20,000 nt of DNA from Monosiga brevicollis MX1. Taxonomy: Eukaryota. A program made the translations under genes and the position numbers. The stretch spans positions 189,162 through 209,161 of the forward strand of contig NW_001865085.1 of assembly GCF_000002865.3 (NCBI RefSeq), written 5' to 3'. The notes beneath the pieces were generated by a model. That model was not told the origin of the DNA. It ran no database searches and was given only the letters and a program-made list of their open reading frames with translations. This document shows positions 1,784 to 19,586 of this stretch, piece by piece; the stretch's first letter is position 1; the number at the start of each line of letters is the position of its first letter.

Positions 1784-3341
1784 GTGCTCCTCTTCTTGGG
1801 AGTGATCGATCGATCGCGGTGATGGGGCGCCAGAGTTGCAAGTCGCAGCAATGGGGCCGGTCCTTGGTGCTCATGGCCCTGGCCATGCTGCTGGCCGGGA
1901 CGGGAGCACGGCCGACCATGCGCTTGGATGCCGTTGGGAACTTGCGCATCGACACCGGTCCGACCGAGACGGCTGCCAGCGTCTTGCTCAACGGCGTCGA
2001 TGCCGTTGGGGCCCTGACCACCCTGCGGCGGGCGATTGCTAATCTGGGCGGCCACATCATCGAGCCTGCTCCCCTTATCAAGGAGCCTGTCGAGGCAGCC
2101 AAGGCTCGCTTTGCCCTGAATGAGTGTGGCCATCTCGTCCTCAACAGCAGCGCGGGCCGAGGCGTTCTGTTGAATGGGATGGACGTCCTGCACGAGCTGA
2201 CGCTCCTCCAGCAAGCCACAGAGGCCCTAGCGTCGAGTGCTGCGATCGAGACGGCCTCCACGGCCTCAAGCGCCTCGGTGGCGCCTGTTTCCGCTTCCTG
2301 TTCTAAGCTGATGGATGCGAGGGCCGAAAATTCCATCACGGTCGACTCTGTGGGCAACGTTCATCTCAATTCGAGCGGGATGCAGGCCATATGGCTGAAT
2401 GGGCTGGATTTTCTCAGCGCGCTGACCGAGCTGCAAGCCGCGGTCACCCGTCTGGAGCAAGCCACCACGGCGTCTCCGAGCACCTCACCGGTCCCCGTCC
2501 ATGTCCATGTGGGCAACGTGGGCTGTGACCTGTCCGCAATCCCGCCCACCACTGCCACCATCCAGGGGAACCTGATGCTCGACCAATGCGGGGACGCGTT
2601 CACGGGGGCCGGGATGATGGTCTTGAGCCACCTCCAGCGGGTTGAAGGGTCTGTATCCATTTCGGTGCGTCGAATTCGGCACCAACCCAACCTCTTGAAT
2701 GCGACCATGATACACGATGCTGTCTGGGACGGTGCTTCACCCTGAGCCCCTCTTGTTCGACGCTAGGGCAATGCTGCTTTGACCCACGTGGATGGTCTGA
2801 GCAACCTCTATTACATCAGTGATAGCCTGACGATTGGCGTACGTGCTGTCGATGCCGTCCAACTGACGCAACCGTTCTTCTTGTGTTTCTGTGTTTCCGT
2901 GTTTATTTACTGACACTTTGATTTTTTTTTCTCCTTGGCAGAACAATGCTGCTTTGACCAGCGTGGATGGTTTGGGGCATCTGATCGACATCGGCGGCTC
3001 CTTGACAATTTCTGTATGCCGACACACACCTATTTTACAGCAAAGCGGCGTGCAAGGTCATGCCCGCATGTTCTCAACCACAATAATGGGTCTGTGTGAC
3101 AGGAAAATATGCAGCTGACCGACATTGATGGCTTGAGTGGTCTCAAGTCTATTCCTGGCCATGTTTATCTCTCCGTACGTCAGACGCATCATTCCGAGCT
3201 TTGCAAGGAAAAAGCCGGGACGCTCTTTGGATGGGTATCACCCCTTCAATCATACTCACTCTGGTTTCAACGGTATTATTATCAATATCATTTTTATGTT
3301 TTTCGCAGAACAATGCCCAGCTCACCAATGTATATGGCTTG
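1784..3341 (+). repeat. Near-identical segmental duplicate, copy 1 (copy 2 at ~6507-8057)
   Basis: Identity starts at GTGCTCCTCTTCTTGGGAGTGATCGATCG (1784 and 6507, offset 4723). It covers exons 1-4 and introns 1-3, weakens late in intron 4, and ends within exon 5 after ATGGCTTG. Confidence 0.95.
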
Positions 3342-6506: not shown

Positions 6507-8057
6507 GTGCTCCTCTTCTTGGGAGTGATCGATCGATCGCGGTGATGGGGCGCCAGAGTTGTCAGTCGCAGCAGTGGGGCCGGTCCTTGGTGCTCATGGC
6601 CCTGGCCATGCTGCTGGCCGGGACGGGAGCACGGCCGACCATGCGCTTGGATGCCGTTGGGAACTTGCGCATCGACACCGGTCCGACCGAGACGGCTGCC
6701 AGCGTCTTGCTCAACGGCGTCGATGCCGTTGGGGCCCTGACCGCCCTGCGGCGGGCGATTGTTCATCTGGGCGGCCACATCATCGAGCCTGCTCCCCTTA
6801 TCGAGGAGCCTGTCGAGGCAGCCAAGGCTTGCTTTGCGCTGAATGAGTGTGGCCATCTCGTCCTCAACAGCAGCACGGGCCGAGGCGTTCTGTTGAATGG
6901 GATGGACGTCCTGCACGAGCTGACGCTCCTCCAGCAAGCCACAGAGGCCCTAGCGTCGAGTGCTGCGATCGAGACGGCCTCCACGGCCTCAAGCGCCTCG
7001 GTGGCGCCTGTTTCCGCTTCCTGTTCTACGCTGATGGATGCGGGGGCCGAAAATTCCATCACGGTCGACTCTGTGGGCAACGTTCATCTCAATTCGAGCG
7101 GGATGCAGGCCATATGGCTGAATGGGCTGGATTTTCTCAGCGCGCTGGCCGAGCTGCAAGCCGCGGTCACCCGTCTGGAGCAAGCCACCACGGCGTCTCC
7201 GAGCACCTCACCGGTCCCCGTCCATGTCCATGTGGGCAACGTGGGCTGTGACCTGTCCGCAATCCCGCCCACCACTGCCACGATCCAGGGGAACCTGATG
7301 CTCGACCAATGCGGGGACGCGTTCACGGGGGCCGGGATGATGGTCTTGAGCCACCTCCAGCGGGTTGAAGGGTCTGTATCCATTTCGGTGCGTCGAATTC
7401 GGCACCAACCCAACCTCTTGAATGCGACCATGATACACGATGCTGTCTGGGACGGTGCTTCACCCTGAGCCCCTCTTGTTCGACGCTAGGGCAATGCTGC
7501 TTTGACCCACGTGGATGGTCTGAGCAACCTCTATTACATCAGTGATAGCCTGACGATTGGCGTACGTGCTGTCGATGCCGTCCGACTGACGCAACCGTTC
7601 TTCTTGTGTTTCTGTGTTTCCGTGTTTATTTACTGACACTTTGATTTTTTTTCTCCTTGGCAGAACAATGCTGCTTTGACCAGCGTGGATGGCCTGGGGC
7701 ATCTGATCGACATCGGCGGCTCCTTGACAATTTCTGTATGCCGACACACACCTATTTTACAGCAGAGCCGTGTGCAAGGTCATGCCCGCATGTTCTCAAC
7801 CACAATAATGGGTCTGTGTGACAGGAAAATGTGCAGCTGACCGACATTGATGGCTTGAGTGGTCTCAAGTCTATTCCAGGCCATGTTTATGTCTCCGTAC
7901 GTCAGACGCATCATTCCGAGCTTTGCAAGGATAAAGCCGGGACGCTCTTTGGATGGGCATCACCCCTTCAATCATACTCACTCTGGTTTCAACGTTATCT
8001 TTTCTTCTTTAAATTTTTTCGCAGAACAATGCCCAGATCACCAATGTGGATGGCTTG
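6507..8057 (+). repeat. Near-identical segmental duplicate, copy 2
   Basis: Direct comparison with 1784-3341 shows only scattered substitutions and small indels. Confidence 0.95.
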
Positions 8058-9628: not shown

Positions 9629-10118
9629 TTCTTTACATTTTTCCTTTGACTCTTCTTCCTCTTGCTCTTCTTCTTCTTCTTCCCCTCTCTTTGGCGTTGG
9701 TATCATTCTCGGCATCGGCGGGTTGCTCGACGTGCCTTGCTTGTGTGCGTGGTGGCTGACTGCTTGTGCTTGGTACGGGACTCTCCTGGTCGTGGCCTTG
9801 CGGCGACGCCAGATCGCTTGATTGAGAGCATCGCTGCCATTTTTTTCCGTGGTGTGAAACCACTGATCTCGCCTCGCAGTCATCAGCGTACGCTTGGGCA
9901 AACAAATACACCGGGCCGCAACTGTCACCGAGAACTGTTGGCCAAAGGTGAGTCGCTTGACGACGTGCTGCCCGATGCAAACATGTACATCCATGGATGT
10001 ACGTCTGCTGTTTGGTATGCAGTTGTGTGGTATTGGCTACACTTTGAATATGTCACTGAGTAGGGTGACGTTATGGTATAACATGGGACATATACTGCAT
10101 GTTTGCATCATCCCACAG

Positions 10119-11889
10119 GATGGCTGGACACCACTGCACTGGGCCTGCATTCACGGTCATCCCACGGTGGTAAAGATGTTGTTGAAGCACGGTGTTGATT
10201 CTGACGCCAAGGCCAACGTCGGTACAGTACCTCCCCCTTCTCGTTACCCCTCTGACTGCTGCTCTTGCTCCCGTTGCTCGTCGCCTTTGCCCCGTCCCTC
10301 CTCTCCTCTACACCCTGCCCACCCGTGCGCGTCCGTTCTTCCCCCTGGCTCCTTTTTTCTTTCCCGCTATCCCTCTTTTCCCCCGTTTTGCGTCCGCCCG
10401 TTGTCGGTGCTCCCCGCGCCCCGACCCTGCGCCCCGCTGGTGTCTTCCGTCTGCCGTCCTTGCTCTCCCCTTTTCTACTCTATCCAGGCACCACTCCACC
10501 CTTTGCCGTTGCGCCTCTGCCTCTCTCGCTCGCTTCAGCGGCTTTTGGTGGTCGTTTCTTCAGTTTTACCCATCACACTGAGCTTTCCCTTTCTTTTTTT
10601 TTTTTCTTCCCCTCTCCAAACGCGCCTCCTTTCGAACCCCTGCTACCTGCCCGTACCATTTGTACACCACTCGCGCGTCTGGCGGCTTCGGCACACTCAA
10701 AAGAATTTTCGCCTGTGTTCTGAGAAAACAAATGCACGTCGCCCAACTCAGCCCTCGCGTCGCTGCCCACCTTACACGCTCCAATCACATGTTCTCAGAG
10801 TGGCGAAACGCCCCTCGAATGCGGACGTCGCAACGGACATGGCGACGAGCTGGAGCCCGTGTTTGCTGCTCACGAGGCTTGCCTGTCACAACCACCCGCA
10901 TCCCTCGCTCCGCCCACGCCGGCACCGCCTTCAGCCTGGCTGCCGTCTCTGCCCACCACCCCCACCCTCGAGGTCAGCCTGCTCTCCCATCTTATTTTCC
11001 CAATGCAGTTACTACCCCAATCCCCACGGCCTTATCCAACCTGATCACGACCAATGGCACCACGCAACCCTTATTTAGACCACGGCCTCTGTTGTGGTGG
11101 CAGTGGACAGGTGGCTCAAGCCGCTCCTGCCCGCGCACACCACCACCCATCCCCTCTCTCACCTCGATGCATTTATCAACGGTGCTGCCAAACAAGACCC
11201 CAATCTTGGAACGGCAGTTGCTTCAATCCGCAAAACCATCGATGAAGCTCGACCAGATTGTCCCGCCATGGACTGGGCTACCTTTCAGGCGACCATTACC
11301 CAGGTTCTCAACGCACTCGACCAGGCACTGGCAGCGCCCAAAGCGTTGAGCAACCGCTTGAAGCAATTGGACCCCAACACTGACAACCTAGAATCAATAC
11401 TGCAAGAGCTGCATGGTGCCACGACTGGATTTGAGCTGCAACCAGCTTTTCTTGAGCTTCAGACCTTTTTGGCAGCATGCCCCGCTCCACCCACCACGCC
11501 AGTGATTGCGCCCAAAACGCCACCCTCCGACCTAGCGGCGGCCCTGAGCAAAGTCATCGTTCTGAGCGGCGTGGAACCCAAACGTCAAGAGCTGCTCACC
11601 AGCGCCAACAGCAACCTCAAGCGCTTGGTGCTGGCCTTGATTGATGCCCTGGGTGCCGTGGCAAGAGCGGGAACCAATGACACGATTCATCGCGTGGAGA
11701 CGCTAGGGCAGTGCGCGCGATGCGTGGATGCGAGTGCGCCGCCGCCAGCCGAGGCATTGCCCGAGGCCTGGGAGGAGCTATGCCAAGCTCACGGGAAGCT
11801 GAGCCTAACGCTATGCAGAGGCAAATGTCATACATGTGTTTTGTTCTGCCCCCTTTTAGGCTTGAGCTGTCGAATGAGAAACTTACATG
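10119..11889 (+). pseudogene. 5' part of an ankyrin-repeat + Pro-rich + alpha-helical domain gene, interrupted by the mobile element
   Basis: A 99-nt phase-0 ankyrin exon at 10119-10217 reads DGWTPLHWACIHGHPTVVKMLLKHGVDSDAKAN. Exon 10799-10972 reads SGETPLECGRRNGHGDELEPVFAAH (capping ankyrin-like) followed by a Pro-rich stretch. An exon from 11079 (TTASVVVAVDRWLKP...helical...MRNLH) is open up to the TTACATG repeat. Upstream exons (~9880-9998) are unresolved. Confidence 0.65.
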
Positions 11890-14268
11890 TTAACAAATCT
11901 ATCCCCCGGGAATGCCACGGCCTGCAAGCAGAACTCAAGTGTGACATCATGTTTTGTCTTTTTCCACACGTCAATCCATCCTCTTTCAATCCATTCTCGC
12001 CTTGCTCGTATCCTCTGTTCACTCGGCCCGCCAACGCTTCGAGCTATCGTCATTCAACACACCCAGCCATGTCAAGGGCGCAAGAGAGCGTTTGCTTGCA
12101 CTGCAATATCACCTTCCACAGTCGTGTTGCAAGAGATCAACATGTTTCTTTGGTGCGTGGCGTGCATCATGAATCTGTCTGATTGTTCTCCGAAAAAAAA
12201 AAAAAAAACACCTCATCACCTCATCATCATTCGTGAACATGTAGGTGCACCAGAAGAGAACACGGATCAGGTTGAACGGAGAAGTGATCGTTCGACACCG
12301 GGAGAATGACGGCTTTTTTCATTGCCGAGTGGCAGGGTGCCACTACCGCCACAAACGTGCGGTCACTCTCAAGTCTCACCTTCGACACCAACATGAGGAG
12401 CGGGCACCACCCATGCCGGCAGTGATCAACAACCATCCGCCTGCTCGCCAAAAACCCGCTCGAACGCGCACGAGAAAGCGCGTAGTCAGGCTTGACCGAG
12501 GCCTAGGCATTGCTGGGGCTCGGCAGTTCATGGAGGGCATTGGTTGCTTGGTGAGCCCTGCTGTTGCATCACTGGTCTGTACGCATTGTGGCCATGTCCT
12601 GAGCGGCAGGGTACTCCATCACATCCTCAACAAGCACCATGTAAGGTGTAGCCAAGAAGATATCGACGCAGCCACGGCACTCCTGCGCTCCCTGCAGCCT
12701 GAGGAGCCGCCAATTAACCTCGGGCCAGAATCAGGACCTTGTTTGCCTGTAGAAGGCATTCCTATTCTTGACGGTGTGGGTTGCCCCTTATGTCAAGCAT
12801 GCTTTACCTCGAGCGGCAGTCTCAAAAATCACGTTATGGCAGAGCATCCAGATGAACCAGGGGCCTAGCAGTCGCCACGACTTGTCAAGCTGCAAAAGCC
12901 GTTGCGTGGAGCTGGAGTTCGTTGTGTCGAGGTCATTGTCGAAGAGAGCCACGATGCTTCGGCAGCCGATGTAAGCGAAAACGAGCAGGAGCTCGAGGAG
13001 CAGCAGCGGTTCAAGCACTTTATCTCAAGCACCCAGGCCATGGCCTCAGAGGCTGAGGATAAGCGATGCCCGCACGGCGTTCACCAGATGCATCCGTTCT
13101 ACGACAGCGTGGGCATGACGCTGGTCATTAACGAGCTGAAGTCAGAGCGCATGGTCGAACTGGGCCACAACACCCCGTCGGCACTCCTCGAGTCGGGCAT
13201 GCATGAGCTGTTCTGGACGGCCTACGAGCAGCTCTCGGATCAGGGCCTGGCCGCCGCTGCGGTGACGCGTCTGTTTGACGACAATGAAGGGCAGTATCAG
13301 CATCGCCCCATGCGGCAAGTACAGCCGCAAACCGTCAGCAGGTACCTGAGTCTTGGAACACGCCTGGTCCAATTTTTGCTGCTGCTGGAGGCCATGCCAG
13401 CCCCCGATCCGTCCAGCTTTCTGGGCCAGGTGCTTGCCAGCCGTGGCCCTGCGGTAATCAATGCCACCGCGGCTCTGAGTGCGGCTCTGGACGCTGGAAT
13501 GACCAAGAAAGAGCTGGTCGAGCCCCTGACGTCTCTGTGGCTGGCCCTGGTGGAGGTGGAGCTGAGCCTCTTTGACAACGACAAGGTGCACTTTGTCAAC
13601 GTCTTCCTATTGTGCACGGCCGTGTCCAAAGGAAGCGGCATCCTGCAAGACATCAGGCAGTGGACCACGACGCCCGCTGGACTGCTGTACGTTTTCAAAT
13701 TGTTCCTGCTTCGCCGTGGCAAGAATGAGTCGTGGTCAGTGGCCAACGAGTTGAGGCCGTATATGCAGCCCGGGCGATTGGTGCATTTCTTGAGCCAGCG
13801 CATGAGCATGGCACGAACAGCGAGCATGGCCGAGGGGCAGGCTGGAGTCGACGTCGAGGTCCGAGCCGATGGCGACGTGACGGACGAGACGCTGCACACC
13901 ATTGTCTGTCGAGGCATTGAGCTCAATGTGGAGGAGCTTGGGGCTGCCTTGGAGCAGATGCGCAAAGACATGACGGAAACATTGGACAAGCACCTCTTGT
14001 TGGTCTCAGGCCTGCGGACGAAGTACGAGAACGAAAATGAGCGGCTGCGATTGAAGGAGGATCGGACCAACAGGGTCAAGAACTGGTGGGTGGGCCATGG
14101 CAGTCCAGCCGAGAACGCGCTGTTTGATCACATTGGCCAGACCCCGAGTCTGCGGCAAGAGTTTATCCGAACGGAGCATGGGTCCAGTGGCGAGCTGACC
14201 TTTCGAGAGGACAGGGTACGGGTATGGCTCCGATATGTGCGCAGGTTCAACGAGCTAGCACTCACCTA

Positions 14269-14312
14269 CACGCACATTGCCGGAGGTACGATTGAATCAA
14301 GCCGTCTCTTGG

Positions 14313-14345
<33 letters not shown>

Positions 14346-15213
14346 TTCCTGCCACTCATGCCTGCTTGCCTTTGACTAGGTCTGCCGCCACGAGCCTCTG
14401 TGTATCAAGGGCTGTCCTACAAAAACGGCGTGGGCCGGCAACGAGCCGCGTTTTTTTGCCGAGAAGCAGCTCTCCATATTGACCCGCGTGAGCAAGACCT
14501 ACTGGCTGTCCCTGAACGAACAGCACACCTTTCGATACGTAGACCAGGAAATCAGCACGCCTGCGATCCATGAGAGAAGCAATAACAGATCAGGAAGAAA
14601 GAGGACGTGAGGAACAATGATGATCTAGATAATGAAAAGGGGGCTGATATTCATGTATTTACTGCTGTGCAAGCCTCTGGAGCACATGCTGAGCAGCTGG
14701 CTGCAAAAGCGGGGCGGGCTGGACACCCCCGACGACGAGAACGGCATTCACAATGCCGAGCAGGACGACGAAGATTTCCTCGACGACGAGCTGGATGAAG
14801 ACCACATGAGCCACGACGAGACGATGACTTTGCGACGCGAGGTCCGGGACGCTCGAAACCACTACAACAACAGCCACCTGCTCTTCAACATTGCGCCCCT
14901 GCAGACGATGGTCAGCCCAGCCACCATATATGCGACATTTCGTCGACAAATGACCACGTACCTGCATCGGCCAAAGCTGGGGGTGGCCACGTGGCGACAC
15001 GCCGCAACCTTCTGGATGACGACGTTTGTGATTAACCGACTGTCGGCCGAGACGACCGGCGCCCTGGGCAGCCTGATCCACACTCAAGCTCAACACTCTG
15101 GGGACACCGCCCAGCGGGCCTATGCACGCACAGCCAGTGACCATGTGCAAACCAAAATGTCGTCGCGATTGATGCATCAAGTGGCCTCGCAAAAATGGCA
15201 TGCTTTGTTTGGA
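14269..15213 (+). other. Tyrosine-recombinase-like catalytic domain within the polyprotein
   Basis: Candidate catalytic residues occur in canonical order: R in GGLPPR (14391-14393), K in TRVSKT (14494-14496), WRH (14992-15000), H in QAQHS (15094-15096), Y in RAYAR (15121-15123). Assignment is by motif recognition, not by a profile search. Confidence 0.65.
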
Positions 15214-15399
15214 CTAGATCGCAAGCGCAGCATAGCCGAGTTGACCGCGAACCAAGAAGCATTGAAAGCTCGCTATCCCATCAGCTGGAACCCGGTGACT
15301 GACCTCTCACCCGAGGCAAACGGGCGTATCATCATGAACACGAGGGCCGAGCATGACGTACCCTACATGACCCAGCTGGCCAAGCAGGCGAGCATCTCG

Positions 15400-16631
15400 T
15401 GGGGCCACAGTTTCAACAGCCAAGAACAGTTGGACCTGGCTGCGGCTATTGACCAGCACCAGCCGGAGGATGGATGGCTGATTGTTGTTGCACCGACAGG
15501 CATGGGCAAAACATTTTGTACCCTGCCCAAGCTGGGCTGTCGCCCGCATGCCGGTACGGTGCTGTGGATTGTGCCGTTTGTGGCCGTGGCCAACGATTTA
15601 TTGCGGCGATTTCAAGGCGCAGGTCACAGTGCCCAGCGATGGCTTGGTCCCTCTACACAGGTGGCAGATGGCCTGGACGTGCTCATCGTTACGACCGACA
15701 TGTTTGTCCGCGTGGGATCTGAATCCCTACATGGGAAGGTCTGCTTTCAGCGCATCCGCACCGTGGTGATGGACGAGGCGCACACACTCATCTCAGATGC
15801 CAGCTACCGAGATGTGATGGACGAAGTCGCAGCCAGTGTTGGCTCTGGCGGATGGACCAACATCAAACGCGTGGCGTTGACGGGCACACTTTGCATCGGG
15901 GACCAGGAGCATCTGTTTCGAAAGCTGGGTCAGCAAGTCGGGGGCAAGGTGTACCGTCTGGAGACGATGCGTCGCGATCTGCAGCTGCGTGTGCTTCACG
16001 GAAATCAGCTGAACTTTTTGTCGCATGTGCAAGACACTGTGGACACGCAGCGGGTGATGCGTCAGGCGAATGGGGAGCGTGTGCACATGATGGTCTTTTG
16101 CGACACTGTGAACGAGGTGAAGCTGCTGTGTGACCAGCTGCACGCACGCGGCTACATGGCCTTGCCCTACTACACCGACCTGGAGGAGAAGGCGCAAAAG
16201 GACCACGTGGCACAGTGGCAACGGGGTGAATGCGACGTCATTGTGGCCACCAGCTGCCTCAGCACGGGTGTGGATCTGCTCACCATTCGCCACGTGCTGT
16301 GGTATGGCAACGGCTACAACGTCTATACGCTGGCCCAGGTACGTTGTTGCTCAAACAGTCGTGTGACTGTATGGAGTTGAAAACAAAAAAAAAAATTCAA
16401 TTGTTGGTTTTGCTGATGGTGTACATGTGCTTGGGCTAGGCATTTGGTCGGGCTGGTCGCGATAAACAGGGAGGAACTGCCGAGCTGTGGCTACCAGTGA
16501 GACGTGGGCCAGCACCGGGCATGGAAAAGTTTGTCGAGGGCAATGCGTGCCGCAGCTGGGCGCTCGGCAAGTTGCTAGATCCCCGCGCCGCGACATGCTT
16601 TGCTGCCGGCCAGTCGCTTTGTGACGTGTGC
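15400..16631 (+). other. RecQ-family SF2 helicase domain plus RecQ-type Zn-binding motif
   Basis: Motif I APTGMGKT (15490-15513), Ia IVPFVAV, II DEAH (15772-15783), III LTGT, IV MVFC, V VATSCLSTGVD, VI QAFGRAGRD (spliced), then CR..LD..C..CDVC. Confidence 0.92.
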
Positions 16632-18753
16632 GCAGGAACAGCACAGCGCCTGGAGCCAGCAATAGCTGCGCGCCAGCAGCGCGCTGCCCAAGCGTTGAGT
16701 GTGGGGCATGTGGAAGCAGAGCCCGAGGCGATGGCGGAGGAGGAAGATGTGTTGTCTGAGCCACCTGCAGCACGGCTCGAGGAAGAAGAATCGATCGGGC
16801 CAGAGTCCGCTTTGGATGTAACTTCAGCATCGAACGTTGACACAGTCGCGTCCCCAGGACCAGGTGCCGTTGCAGCGCAGTCGAGCAGAAGCACTCCACG
16901 TGCCCAGGACACGGCTGTGGTGGCGACAAATGGAGGGCCAATGACGGACGCTGCTGTGCCACGGATACAGACGAGTGCTGCTTGGATTGATGAGGCAGAT
17001 ACAGCACCCATGTCGGTGCCAGCTTCACCCATGGTCTCTGATGCTGATGGCGAGGCGCCTTTACAGCAAGACGCGCGTGGCCCGGCGCAAACCACGATGG
17101 CAGAGGGCGAGAGCACGTCACAGCCAGTCGTGCAGTCAGCAGCACAGCCAACCCCCACGAAACACGCGCCAACCCCGTCGGCCTCGATCATTTGCGTGCC
17201 AGTACCATCGGCCTCGGGTTCAACCTCGTCTCCGGCGCGATCGGCTGCAAGCTCAGCCTCGGGTACACTGCGGCGTAAGCGAGTGCCGCTGGCTGCTGAA
17301 AGTACATGTACCCCTGGGTCTGACAATCATGACGATGGCAACGGCATCGCTACCAGCCCTGCTGCCTCAACATCCAAGCGAACGGCATCGGATGTCACGT
17401 GCACAGCTGTTGCTTCTTCAACAGCGGCGCAAGCAGCGGAGTCGCCTCTTCCCGCAGCAAAACGAGCAGCATCGAGTGGCACGCGCACCGCTACCGTTGC
17501 CGCTACTGCTATCACTCGCTCTGAAGCCCCGGTATCTGCTGCGGCTACGCCACCGAATCGGCACAACGTCGCCCCAATATTTCGGTCGAAATCGGGGACA
17601 AAAAAAAAAATCTGATGAACAACGCGGCGGCTGACAAGTTTATTGGCGTTCTGAAGTTGATGGATGATTACTGCATGCGATGTACCATTCGACAGGCGAA
17701 ACCCGTCCTGAAGGCTGGGCATCAATGCGTATGCAATCGTGTTTGTGAGCGGTGTCACTTCGGAGGACACGAGACAAGTGAATGTTCAGTGCACCTCGCA
17801 TACCCCGACAGAGCCTGTTGCTACGCTTGTGGAATGCCAAGGAAGATTCGTGGATGGGATACATGGAATCACCGTTGCAGGCAGTCTCAAGGACTGGATT
17901 CGGGCCTGAGCTGTCTCCTCCTTTATTCGGACTGTAATCCGGGGCTGCGCGACCTGGCCCACCGGATGGGCTACAACTTGAGGGAAAGGACATTGAAGGA
18001 TATAAAAACGCGCGACTTGTTTGTCAAGTGGCTGTACTCGTCCGGTCCTTGTCCATTTCCAGGGGATGGGCATTGGCGTCTTGTGGAATTTGTGTTTGAA
18101 AGTGCGAGGATCCTGCTTCCCAGTGCGGCGGAAGCCCAAGTCGGCCCCCTCGACAGCTTTCGCTAAACACACACAGGAAGCCCTTTTGAGAATCAGAACA
18201 CAGAACCGAATGTCAGAATGTCATCATCTTTTGTATCTTCAATAACTGCTGAATAGACTGCATCTTTTTACTTGGAATGGCCATGATCAGCTTCAATTAA
18301 TTGAAGCTTTGCTGCATTAACCTCTTGCCTCTATATCCTTCCCTTTGCTGTTGACTTCATTTTTTTTTTTTCTCACAGACGCGCCACGATGAAGCGGGCC
18401 ATGGGCGGGGCGCGCGCGCACTCCTGGTGGTGCGTTGTCGTCGTTGTGGCGCGACGGGCAAGTGCTGCCGAGGTGCAAGCGACGTCATGGATGAACGGGT
18501 GGCCAAGCGACATTGCCGCGTGACCGTCATGGATTTACCATTCTTGCTGATCTCGTGTTGGGCTGCCATTTGTTGTCAAGACAATTCCTCGCTCTGACCC
18601 ATGAAGAGCCGCGATGGCTCGTGCGCTGATGGACGCGCTAGCGAGGCCCAAGAGCCACGGTGCCTGGTCAGATCCGGCACGAAGCACTCCCGCTCAAATG
18701 CAGGTGAGAAACCGATCTTAGGCCCGCTTTTGAAGATGCTATCCATGTTGCCC

Positions 18754-19088
18754 NNNNNNNNNNNNNNNNNNNNNNNNNNNNNNNNNNNNNNNNNNNNNNN
18801 NNNNNNNNNNNNNNNNNNNNNNNNNNNNNNNNNNNNNNNNNNNNNNNNNNNNNNNNNNNNNNNNNNNNNNNNNNNNNNNNNNNNNNNNNNNNNNNNNNNN
18901 NNNNNNNNNNNNNNNNNNNNNNNNNNNNNNNNNNNNNNNNNNNNNNNNNNNNNNNNNNNNNNNNNNNNNNNNNNNNNNNNNNNNNNNNNNNNNNNNNNNN
19001 NNNNNNNNNNNNNNNNNNNNNNNNNNNNNNNNNNNNNNNNNNNNNNNNNNNNNNNNNNNNNNNNNNNNNNNNNNNNNNNNNNNNNNNN
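18754..19088. other. Assembly gap (335 N)
   Basis: Run of N. Confidence 1.
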
Positions 19089-19089
19089 G

Positions 19090-19501
19090 GCCCGGCTGCC
19101 ATTTGGTGTTGGCCAAGGAGCCAAGGCGCGCCTTTGGTTTTTTTTTTTGGCCGTTGAGCGGGGTGCTAATGATGAGGCTGTCGTGTCACAGGATAGCCAC
19201 AGGTGGATGAGGACTCCATAGTGAGCAGCGAAATCTCGTGAAGAATGAGAGGTAAGCTTTGTTTTGACGTTCGCCGAAAATTGTGACCAGGAGCCCGGCT
19301 GCCATTTGGTGTTGGCCAAGGAGCCTTAGGCGCGCCTTTGGTTTTTTTTTGCCCTTGAGGGGGTGCTAATGGTGGGGCTGTCGTGTCACAGGATAGTCAC
19401 AGGTGGATGAATACTTCCCATTGAGCAGCGGAAGCGTGCGAAGAATGCGTGGTGAGCTTTGTTTTGACGTGCGCCGAAAATTGTGACCAGGGGCCCGGCT
19501 G
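19090..19501 (+). repeat. ~200-bp tandem repeat (two full units plus the start of a third) near the right end of the element
   Basis: Units start with GCCCGGCTG at 19090, 19293 and 19493 (periods 203 and 200). Shared blocks include GCCATTTGGTGTTGGCCAAGGAGCC, GTCGTGTCACAGGATAG and CGCCGAAAATTGTGACCAGG. Confidence 0.92.
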
Positions 19502-19586
19502 TCACTCGGTCTTCGCAAATGGCCCGTCGCTCGCATTTGTTCAATTTTTGGGTTCTTTTTATCGTGGTGGCCATTAATTTTACATG

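What the first reader, a model, noticed from the sequence alone, without database searches (positions are those of the whole stretch)
14269..15213. Cryptic tyrosine-recombinase active site hidden by an intron, a frameshift and an insertion
No single ORF in the track shows this domain. After splicing 14286-14379, removing one T at 14451-14457 and removing 14560-14643, it reads THIAGGLPPRASVYQGLSYKNGVGRQRAAFFAEKQLSILTRVSKTYWLSLNEQHTFRYVDQEISTLIFMYLLLCKPL...LGVATWRHAATFW...IHTQAQHSGDTAQRAYAR...SQKWHALFG. The order matches YR box I Arg, beta-hairpin Lys, the (H)xxRH motif and the box II (G)H-x8-Y nucleophile. The His of HxxR is replaced (ATWR). An acidic loop (DDEDFLDDELDED) is inserted between the boxes.
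Basis: partly seen in the sequence, partly recalled or inferred. Interest (0 to 1): 0.8.

Follow-up and report, generated by a model that had tools for sequence, protein, structure and literature searches.

The report
Recombinase hidden in telomere-linked helicase
This is a broken copy of a choanoflagellate 'telomere-linked helicase' gene whose long-unexplained middle domain is predicted to fold like a DNA cut-and-rejoin enzyme (tyrosine recombinase) and keeps five such active-site residues across distant relatives, so intact copies likely cut and rejoin DNA themselves, which would explain how these genes spread among chromosome ends.

Summary
Observation confirmed. The stretch is the 'TLH domain' of a Monosiga brevicollis telomere-linked helicase (TLH) gene: zinc fingers/OrsD, helical region, this domain, RecQ-like helicase. 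The intron, extra T and 84-nt insertion are real; paralogs read through without them. This copy is dead (at least four lesions). Motif order alone is chance-level (1094 of 2000 shuffles). The real support: R, K, R, H and Y are all kept in 69 of 71 distant relatives, found with a query that lacks three of them; and a model matches Xer/Cre recombinases best among 48,161 structures (Z 11.9; best unrelated 3.3). The missing His is family-wide. Against activity here: the box I Glu is Val in Monosiga, and the tyrosine's position was not resolved. A Monosiga subfamily has lost Arg, His, Tyr and the helicase P-loop together. Best reading: a recombinase-helicase that spreads TLH units among chromosome ends (0.55); rival: a topoisomerase-like telomere enzyme. 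Mobility is not shown; no element ends were found. Ten literature searches found no such assignment. This scan noted the same idea before on fungal and moss DNA.

The parts
12245..12865 (+). TLH gene 5' part: C2H2-type fingers and OrsD/DUF3505 domain; true start not resolved
   Evidence: Pfam PF12013 E 1.2e-9; matches N-termini of P0016, P0018, P0021, P0022
12866..12868 (+). premature stop TAG; paralogs have Lys here
12869..14191 (+). large helical region before the catalytic domain; fold not identified (possible DNA-binding/core-binding part, inferred)
   Evidence: confident helical model, P0003 residues about 100-460; no Pfam match; Atlas hits only unnamed, mostly ascomycete clusters under 0.9
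14192..15213 (+). TLH domain = predicted tyrosine-recombinase catalytic domain (P0003 residues 465-745), interrupted in this copy
14286..14379 (+). spliceosomal intron 1
   Evidence: GT..AG; spliced in X12 contig
14391..14402 (+). box I: Arg (14391-14393) and Val (14400-14402) where 98 of 103 relatives have Glu
14451..14457 (+). T run with one extra T (frameshift)
14494..14496 (+). conserved Lys (matches Cre K201 in register, not significant by itself)
14559..14642 (+). 84-nt insertion with stops, not an intron, origin unknown
   Evidence: skipped in 4 of 4 runs; no second copy in the window
14722..14820 (+). acidic, disordered loop, present in Monosiga families and few others
14986..14997 (+). 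box II A-T-W-R: Ala at the His place, conserved Arg 14995-14997
15094..15123 (+). His (15094-15096) and Tyr (15121-15123), 9 residues apart as in Cre, lambda Int and XerC
15475..16338 (+). RecQ-like SF2 helicase core (Walker A Lys 15508, DEAH 15772)
   Evidence: Pfam DEAD E 6e-13, Helicase_C E 2.7e-12; motifs aligned
16339..16439 (+). spliceosomal intron 2
   Evidence: GT..AG, spliced in X12 contig
16440..17599 (+). helicase motif VI, a Cys cluster, then a long low-complexity linker
17600..17610 (+). A run one base short (frameshift)
   Evidence: extra A in contigs of 3 of 4 runs; frame change against P0015
17609..18166 (+). C-terminal Cys/His-rich domain and stop

Best explanation
The stretch is the damaged 'TLH domain' of a Monosiga telomere-linked helicase gene; the domain is predicted to have the tyrosine-recombinase fold, and intact family members likely cut one DNA strand through a phosphotyrosine link and rejoin it to a partner, which would let TLH units spread and reshuffle among chromosome ends as a selfish recombinase-helicase element. 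Shown: gene structure, lesions, many paralogs, conservation of R-K-R-H-Y (and of the box I Glu outside Monosiga). Predicted: the fold. Inferred: catalysis; site choice by the zinc fingers and helical region; strand exchange between an element end (or excised circle) and a telomeric or subtelomeric site; unwinding or branch migration by the fused helicase. This copy cannot make the enzyme. Odds by step: recombinase-fold homolog 0.9; active in intact relatives 0.8; used for element spread 0.55.
For: Five residues kept in 69 of 71 distant rows, found with P0012, which lacks three of them. Best matches XerA Z 11.9 (rmsd 3.2, 154 aligned), XerH 9.7, Cre 9.1; best topoisomerase IB 8.3; protelomerase 4.1; best unrelated 3.3. 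Foldseek ranks 1-15 are all recombinases. Glu of R-x-x-E in 98 of 103 rows; PMC2943603 calls this residue unique to recombinases and absent from TopIB. Cre H289A is active; a Starship captain also differs at both the Glu and His places (PMC12506042). 14 of 36 long relatives end within 137 aa of the Tyr with no Walker A motif, so the domain may work without the helicase. P0069 hits PF00589 at E 3.4e-4. Transposon-like traits: 24 protein clusters of this family, 21 named Monosiga models, many broken; a second 30%-identical family in the same genome; in Fusarium, TLH units are flanked by telomere repeats on both sides and form arrays; in Botrytis they are present in one strain and absent in two.
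Against: No element ends, target site or empty site was found; the upstream ankyrin gene is multi-copy too, which fits a subtelomeric block copied by ordinary recombination. No TTAGGG repeat in the window. Foldseek E-values were 0.05 or worse, the whole-protein model gave no significant match, profile comparison with Cre, XerC and Int was not significant (probability under 1%), the alignment found no PDB sequence, and 0 of 44 members hit a recombinase Pfam family. The Tyr segment is unresolved in both models. Monosiga copies carry Val for Glu, and Cre E176V is very weak; with His also gone their site looks like TopIB. Arg-Lys and Arg-His spacings (34, 33) are about 6-11 longer than in Cre, Int and XerC. 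S. pombe tlh genes help telomerase-minus survival (as cited), which points to a host role. Helicase-less forms may be truncated gene models.
Confidence: 0.55

Rival explanations
1. The domain is a real phosphotyrosine enzyme but works like a type IB topoisomerase or junction resolvase for the fused helicase: a host-serving enzyme that relieves torsion or resolves recombination intermediates at telomeres, with no mobility of its own.
For: The five kept residues are exactly those shared with TopIB (PMC2943603). His II is missing family-wide and Glu I in Monosiga. TopIB scores Z 8.3 and 7.7. 21 of 36 long relatives keep a Walker A motif downstream. A Monosiga subfamily lost both active sites together, as expected if they act as one machine. 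tlh1 aids recovery from telomerase loss (cited).
Against: Glu I is kept in 98 of 103 rows; Xer recombinases score above TopIB by 2.5-3.6 Z; a helicase-less clade (SH-aLRT 97, 9 rows, quick tree) keeps all five residues where covered; patchy presence among Botrytis strains.
Confidence: 0.27
2. The fold is real but in Monosiga it is a relic or a DNA-binding module only; copies multiply passively by homologous recombination between subtelomeres.
For: Val for Glu plus Ala for His in family A; subfamily B (6 of 24 proteins) keeps long reading frames with Arg, His and Tyr replaced; flanking ankyrin genes are multi-copy; inactive recombinase-fold proteins exist among the matches (Ndc10, MrpR; roles recalled).
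Against: Two Monosiga families only about 30% alike both keep the box II Arg, His and Tyr; the short branch of family A against B in the tree (0.089 vs 0.27) fits constraint on A.
Confidence: 0.15
3. The motif match is chance in an unrelated helical domain.
For: Loose pattern in 1094 of 2000 shuffles; sequence-profile tests not significant.
Against: Conservation ranks and the unbiased structure search.
Confidence: 0.03

Closest known systems
Telomere-linked RecQ helicase (TLH) family: M. brevicollis, M. oryzae, F. oxysporum, B. cinerea, U. maydis, S. pombe tlh (10.1101/2024.02.27.582403, parts 1-3 of 4 read, figures not seen)
   Same: C2H2 motifs, a roughly 250-aa 'TLH domain' just upstream of a RecQ-like helicase, many near-identical and often broken copies; the paper lists M. 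brevicollis as a member.
   Different: The paper gives the TLH domain no enzymatic identity; here it is assigned to the tyrosine recombinases. Monosiga copies add introns, an acidic loop and Val for Glu.
Xer/Cre/integrase tyrosine recombinases (XerA 4a8e and 5hxy, XerH 5jjv, Cre)
   Same: Predicted fold (Z 9-12), order and identity of Arg, Glu, Lys, Arg, His, Tyr, His-Tyr spacing of 9.
   Different: No His II; longer spacings; 10-16% identity; fused to zinc fingers and a helicase; core-binding domain not shown.
Eukaryotic tyrosine-recombinase DNA transposons: Cryptons (PMC3212892, passages) and Starship captains (PMC12506042, passages)
   Same: Intron-bearing or fungal-type recombinase genes in many decayed copies; the Sanctuary captain also departs from Cre at the Glu and His places.
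   Different: No Pfam match to their families in 44 and 27 proteins scanned; only a weak Atlas lead to NDC10_II (0.87); the words helicase and RecQ do not occur in the Crypton paper; transposition and ends not shown here.
Type IB topoisomerases and protelomerases
   Same: Same fold class and the R-K-R-H-Y set (TopIB per PMC2943603).
   Different: Lower Z (8.3 and 4.1); TopIB has no Glu I, which this family keeps.
Academ transposons that carry a RecQ helicase (mentioned in PMC3627910, passage; the AcademH paper was not held)
   Same: Precedent for a RecQ helicase in a eukaryotic DNA transposon.
   Different: Academ uses a DDE transposase (recalled), not a tyrosine recombinase.

Membership tests
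TLH family | C2H2/OrsD N-terminus, TLH domain, RecQ-like helicase in one gene | tested here: met
   same layout in relatives
TLH family | multi-copy gene family | tested here: met
   24 clusters; X1 contigs over the gene have depth 351 and 462 against about 13 on unique flank (the tool warns that depth is no copy number)
TLH family | location next to a telomere | tested here: inconclusive
   no TTAGGG pair in the window; gap at 18755-19089; no genome held
Tyrosine recombinases | catalytic-domain fold | tested here: met
   predicted model, Z 11.9 to XerA, ranks 1-32 all of this fold class
Tyrosine recombinases | [quoted passage not shown] | tested here: met
   69 of 71 rows
Tyrosine recombinases | Glu/Asp I (R-x-x-E/D) | tested here: inconclusive
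   met in the family (98 of 103) but Val in this gene and its Monosiga paralogs; 95% acidic in recombinases, yet not essential in Cre
Tyrosine recombinases | His II of H-x-x-R (usual, not required: 87% conserved, Cre H289A active) | tested here: not met
   H in 2 of 86 rows; tolerance from PMC2943603
Tyrosine recombinases | five residues cluster in one pocket | not testable with these tools
   no coordinates served; Tyr segment pLDDT under 50; the alignment end 247 to Cre 320 implies His to W315 and Tyr to Y324 only if ungapped
Tyrosine recombinases | N-terminal core-binding domain | tested here: inconclusive
   helical region modelled but whole-model Foldseek found nothing significant; the region was not folded alone
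Tyrosine recombinases | 3'-phosphotyrosine intermediate and strand exchange | not testable with these tools
   needs biochemistry
Crypton or Starship transposons | their recombinase families (Pfam match) | tested here: inconclusive
   no such family reported for 44 plus 27 proteins; weak Atlas lead only
Crypton or Starship transposons | defined ends with short direct repeats, filled and empty sites | tested here: inconclusive
   no bracketing repeat among those shown; no related loci with flanks recovered
Type IB topoisomerases | R-K-R-H-Y set without Glu I and His II | tested here: inconclusive
   fits the Monosiga copies, not the wider family, which keeps Glu

The most novel reading that the evidence does not exclude
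TLH genes of fungi and choanoflagellates are an unrecognised superfamily of eukaryotic DNA transposons whose single protein joins a tyrosine recombinase to a RecQ helicase and inserts at telomeric repeats; hosts such as fission yeast use them as a telomerase backup, and Monosiga keeps a doubly inactivated subfamily that may act as a dominant-negative brake.
Probability: 0.35. Interest if true: 0.88.

Novelty: new variant of a known kind. Interest (0 to 1): 0.72.

Why it matters
TLH genes sit at most chromosome ends of many fungi, including crop pathogens, and in a close relative of animals; their shared domain has had no function since it was named. A recombinase assignment gives single-residue tests (Tyr to Phe, Arg to Ala) in fission yeast tlh1 and turns 'why are these genes at every end, and why so unstable' into a direct question. 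It would add a recombinase-helicase fusion to the short list of eukaryotic tyrosine recombinases. The Monosiga case extends the pattern outside fungi and supplies a natural control: a subfamily in which both active sites were lost together.

Tried and rejected
No genome was held for the window, so copies and ends could not be mapped. Word-based homolog searches reached only Monosiga-type proteins. PDB sequence searches found nothing relevant. Profile-profile comparison with Cre, XerC and Int was no better than two control proteins; the Cre alignment did put Arg, Glu and Lys in register. Whole-protein Foldseek gave only helical noise; the viral library ranked phage integrases first, none with E under 0.026. 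The wide structure search of the whole model and a homodimer prediction never ran, so the core-binding domain and oligomer state stay open. Scans for related loci found none in metagenome, prokaryote or viral collections; the phage search with P0069 matched only the helicase. Two relatives labelled bacterial lie on contigs of 5.5-6.4 kb and were not found in the prokaryote genomes, so I treat the label as unproven. The 84 nt as a third intron: rejected (ends, and absence from DNA-type contigs). Extra T as a pure assembly error: rejected (an X12 contig and model P0015 share it). The tree is the quick version (careful search unfinished) and left out rows covering fewer than 215 of 300 columns. 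Literature: ten searches; 0 papers hold both 'telomere-linked helicase' and 'tyrosine recombinase'; 3 hold 'TLH domain', 6 hold 'DUF3505'; of these I read four in passages or most of the text, and none ties the domain to a recombinase. Rehmeyer 2009, Robertson 2009 and the AcademH paper were not held; Repbase and subscription journals are not searched; bioRxiv supplements and figures were not seen and may bear on the identity of the TLH domain boundaries.

Full report
What the window is. The stretch lies in a eukaryotic gene of about 6 kb (12245-18166, + strand). The part after the insertion is 97-100% identical to several gene models of the choanoflagellate Monosiga brevicollis (22 proteins, 19 named Monosiga models, 3 unnamed; one search adds two more models). 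Pfam finds OrsD/DUF3505 and C2H2-type fingers at the 5' end and DEAD plus Helicase_C domains 3' of the finding. This is the layout of telomere-linked helicases (TLH). The Fusarium TLH preprint (10.1101/2024.02.27.582403; parts 1-3 of 4 read) names M. brevicollis as a member and describes a conserved stretch of about 250 residues just upstream of the helicase, the 'TLH domain', with no function given. By position the finding is that domain; I could not see the paper's alignment figure.

Observation. All three edits are real. The intron 14286-14379 is GT..AG and spliced in one contig of run X12; the 84 nt are skipped in 4 of 4 runs; one T of the run at 14451-14457 is absent in 3 of 4 runs. Models P0001, P0002, P0003 and P0007 carry all five motifs in one reading. 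The copy has two further lesions: a stop at 12866-12868 and an A run one base short at 17600-17610. It cannot encode the enzyme. The motif order alone proves nothing: 1094 of 2000 shuffles match a loose version of it.

Conservation. I searched 1.84 billion representatives with P0012, a paralog that lacks the box I Arg, the His and the Tyr (118 hits). Of 111 new proteins, 106 were kept by an iterated profile of the domain; five matched only the N-terminal part. Among 107 rows under 40% identical to P0003 (four are Monosiga-type), Arg I is kept in 100 of 103, Lys in 102 of 106, Arg II in 83 of 84, His in 74 of 77, Tyr in 76 of 77; all five in 69 of 71 rows that cover all five; they rank 4, 6, 1, 7 and 2 of 245 columns. 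Since the query lacked three of them, and most hits were scored on the N-terminal half only, this is not circular. Glu of R-x-x-E is kept in 98 of 103 rows but is Val in this gene. His II is present in 2 of 86 rows. An extra Arg (R517) is nearly invariant; a role in DNA contact is a guess. The relatives are mostly unnamed; two named ones are from the fungus Sorochytrium, and the nearest Atlas clusters are mostly fungal (0.93-0.96), with weak leads to Phage_integrase (36% of members) and NDC10_II at 0.87.

Fold. The model of P0003 465-751 has pLDDT 79 and pTM 0.74; residues 245-255, which hold the Tyr, are under 50, as in the whole-protein model. Foldseek ranks 1-15 are XerH, IntI, XerA, Tre and Cre, but with E 0.05-0.72. 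The search that does not lean on Foldseek, over 48,161 chains, gives XerA Z 11.9 (rmsd 3.2, 154 aligned), XerA 10.8, Brujita integrase 9.8, XerH 9.7, Cre 9.1; ranks 1-32 are recombinases, type IB topoisomerases (best 8.3), protelomerases (best 4.1) or proteins that I recall as recombinase-fold derivatives; the best unrelated row has Z 3.3. The aligned range ends at model 247 against Cre 320, which puts the His on W315 and the Tyr on Y324 if there is no gap (inference; Cre numbering from PMC2943603, checked on the fetched sequence). Sequence-level tests are weak: 1 of 27 long relatives hits PF00589, below its cut-off; 0 of 44 shorter ones do; profile comparison with three recombinases is not significant.

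Can it work without His II and Glu I? PMC2943603 (12 passages) reports Cre H289A active and E176V very weak, and that both residues are recombinase-specific and absent from TopIB. PMC12506042 (passages) reports a Starship captain with other residues at both places. So the family as a whole looks like a working recombinase; the Monosiga version may be weak or topoisomerase-like.

A natural control. Six of 24 Monosiga-type proteins form subfamily B. It replaces Arg I by Gln (4 of 4 models that include it), His by Pro and Tyr by Phe (6 of 6), and breaks Walker A (5 of 5 that reach it). Of 14 highly conserved columns where family A has the consensus, B differs at exactly three, all catalytic; by hand, the chance that three changes among 14 fall within the five catalytic places is 10 in 364. 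Both active sites were lost together while long frames persist. A second Monosiga family, about 30% identical (P0027, P0029, P0030, the N-terminus of P0001), keeps Arg II, His and Tyr in P0027, P0030 and P0001, not His and Tyr in P0029. In the quick tree the Monosiga rows group together (SH-aLRT 88).

Is it mobile? Not shown. For: many copies, many broken; 14 of 36 long relatives stop soon after the Tyr with no Walker A motif; Fusarium TLH units are bounded by telomere repeats on both sides and form arrays; Botrytis has 14 copies in one strain and none in two others (10.1101/2022.03.07.483234, passages); a repeat-finding pipeline called Colletotrichum's helicase/DUF3505 subtelomeric repeats transposable-element families (PMC5576322, passages); lineage-specific helicase-bearing subtelomeres in Fusarium (10.1101/2023.02.05.527183, passages). 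Against: no ends found; the ankyrin gene upstream is multi-copy as well and is fused to TLH in two models; no telomere repeat in the window; no flanked loci could be fetched.

Mechanism. I commit to a recombinase-helicase element (0.55): zinc fingers and the helical region pick a site, the Tyr cuts and is linked to DNA, strands are exchanged with a telomeric or subtelomeric partner, and the helicase unwinds or moves the junction. All of these steps are inferred. The main rival (0.27) is the same chemistry used as a swivel or resolvase for telomere upkeep; the two are not exclusive.

Novelty. The gene family and the enzyme superfamily are both known; their link was not found in ten searches of the held library (listed under Tried and rejected). 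Other papers opened gave nothing on the point (passages only: PMC9940879, PMC3522703, PMC3627910, PMC3212892, PMC13451438, PMC10799480, PMC4522978, PMC8381367, 10.1101/2025.11.13.688278). The founding TLH papers, Repbase and subscription journals were out of reach, so prior notice cannot be excluded. Eight earlier notes of this scan reach the same reading on fungal and moss DNA; my reading was stated before I saw them, and they are not independent support. New here: the choanoflagellate case, the loss of Glu I, the doubly inactivated subfamily and the second family.

Noticed in passing
window 13709-13818, 14012-14199, 14862-14961, 16180-16283: Contigs of run X12 skip four stretches that read GT..AG on the minus strand: spliced antisense RNA across the TLH gene or its paralogs, one contig each. 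Possibly part of silencing.
   Followed up: partly
proteins P0010-P0014, P0021: Monosiga TLH subfamily with recombinase Arg, His, Tyr and helicase Walker A all replaced, frames long and multi-copy.
   Followed up: yes
proteins P0027, P0029, P0030, P0001 residues 1-300: A second Monosiga OrsD-recombinase family about 30% identical; in model P0001 a piece of it lies directly upstream of a family A gene.
   Followed up: partly
window 10040-11900: Ankyrin-repeat gene of a multi-copy family with high contig depth and spliced joints in X12; joined to TLH in models P0002 and P0007; follows a TLH fragment in P0028.
   Followed up: partly
window 1784-3300 and 6507-8000: Tandem duplication (spacing about 4723, 97-98% identical) of a gene with many short, repeated exons of about 90 nt; a third related N-terminal piece lies on the minus strand at 89-1315.
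   Followed up: no
window 14559-14642: Purine-rich 84-nt insertion of unknown origin with a 2-base overlap at the junction; no second copy in the window.
   Followed up: partly
window 11804: An X9 contig joins TLH OrsD-region sequence to position 11804, and model P0016 has the OrsD region twice: internal duplications among copies.
   Followed up: no
window 18755-19519: Assembly gap followed by two 200-nt spaced repeat units (84% alike over 160 nt).
   Followed up: no
proteins P0060, P0161: TLH-type proteins labelled as bacterial genome bins, on contigs of 5.5-6.4 kb; possibly eukaryotic contamination.
   Followed up: partly
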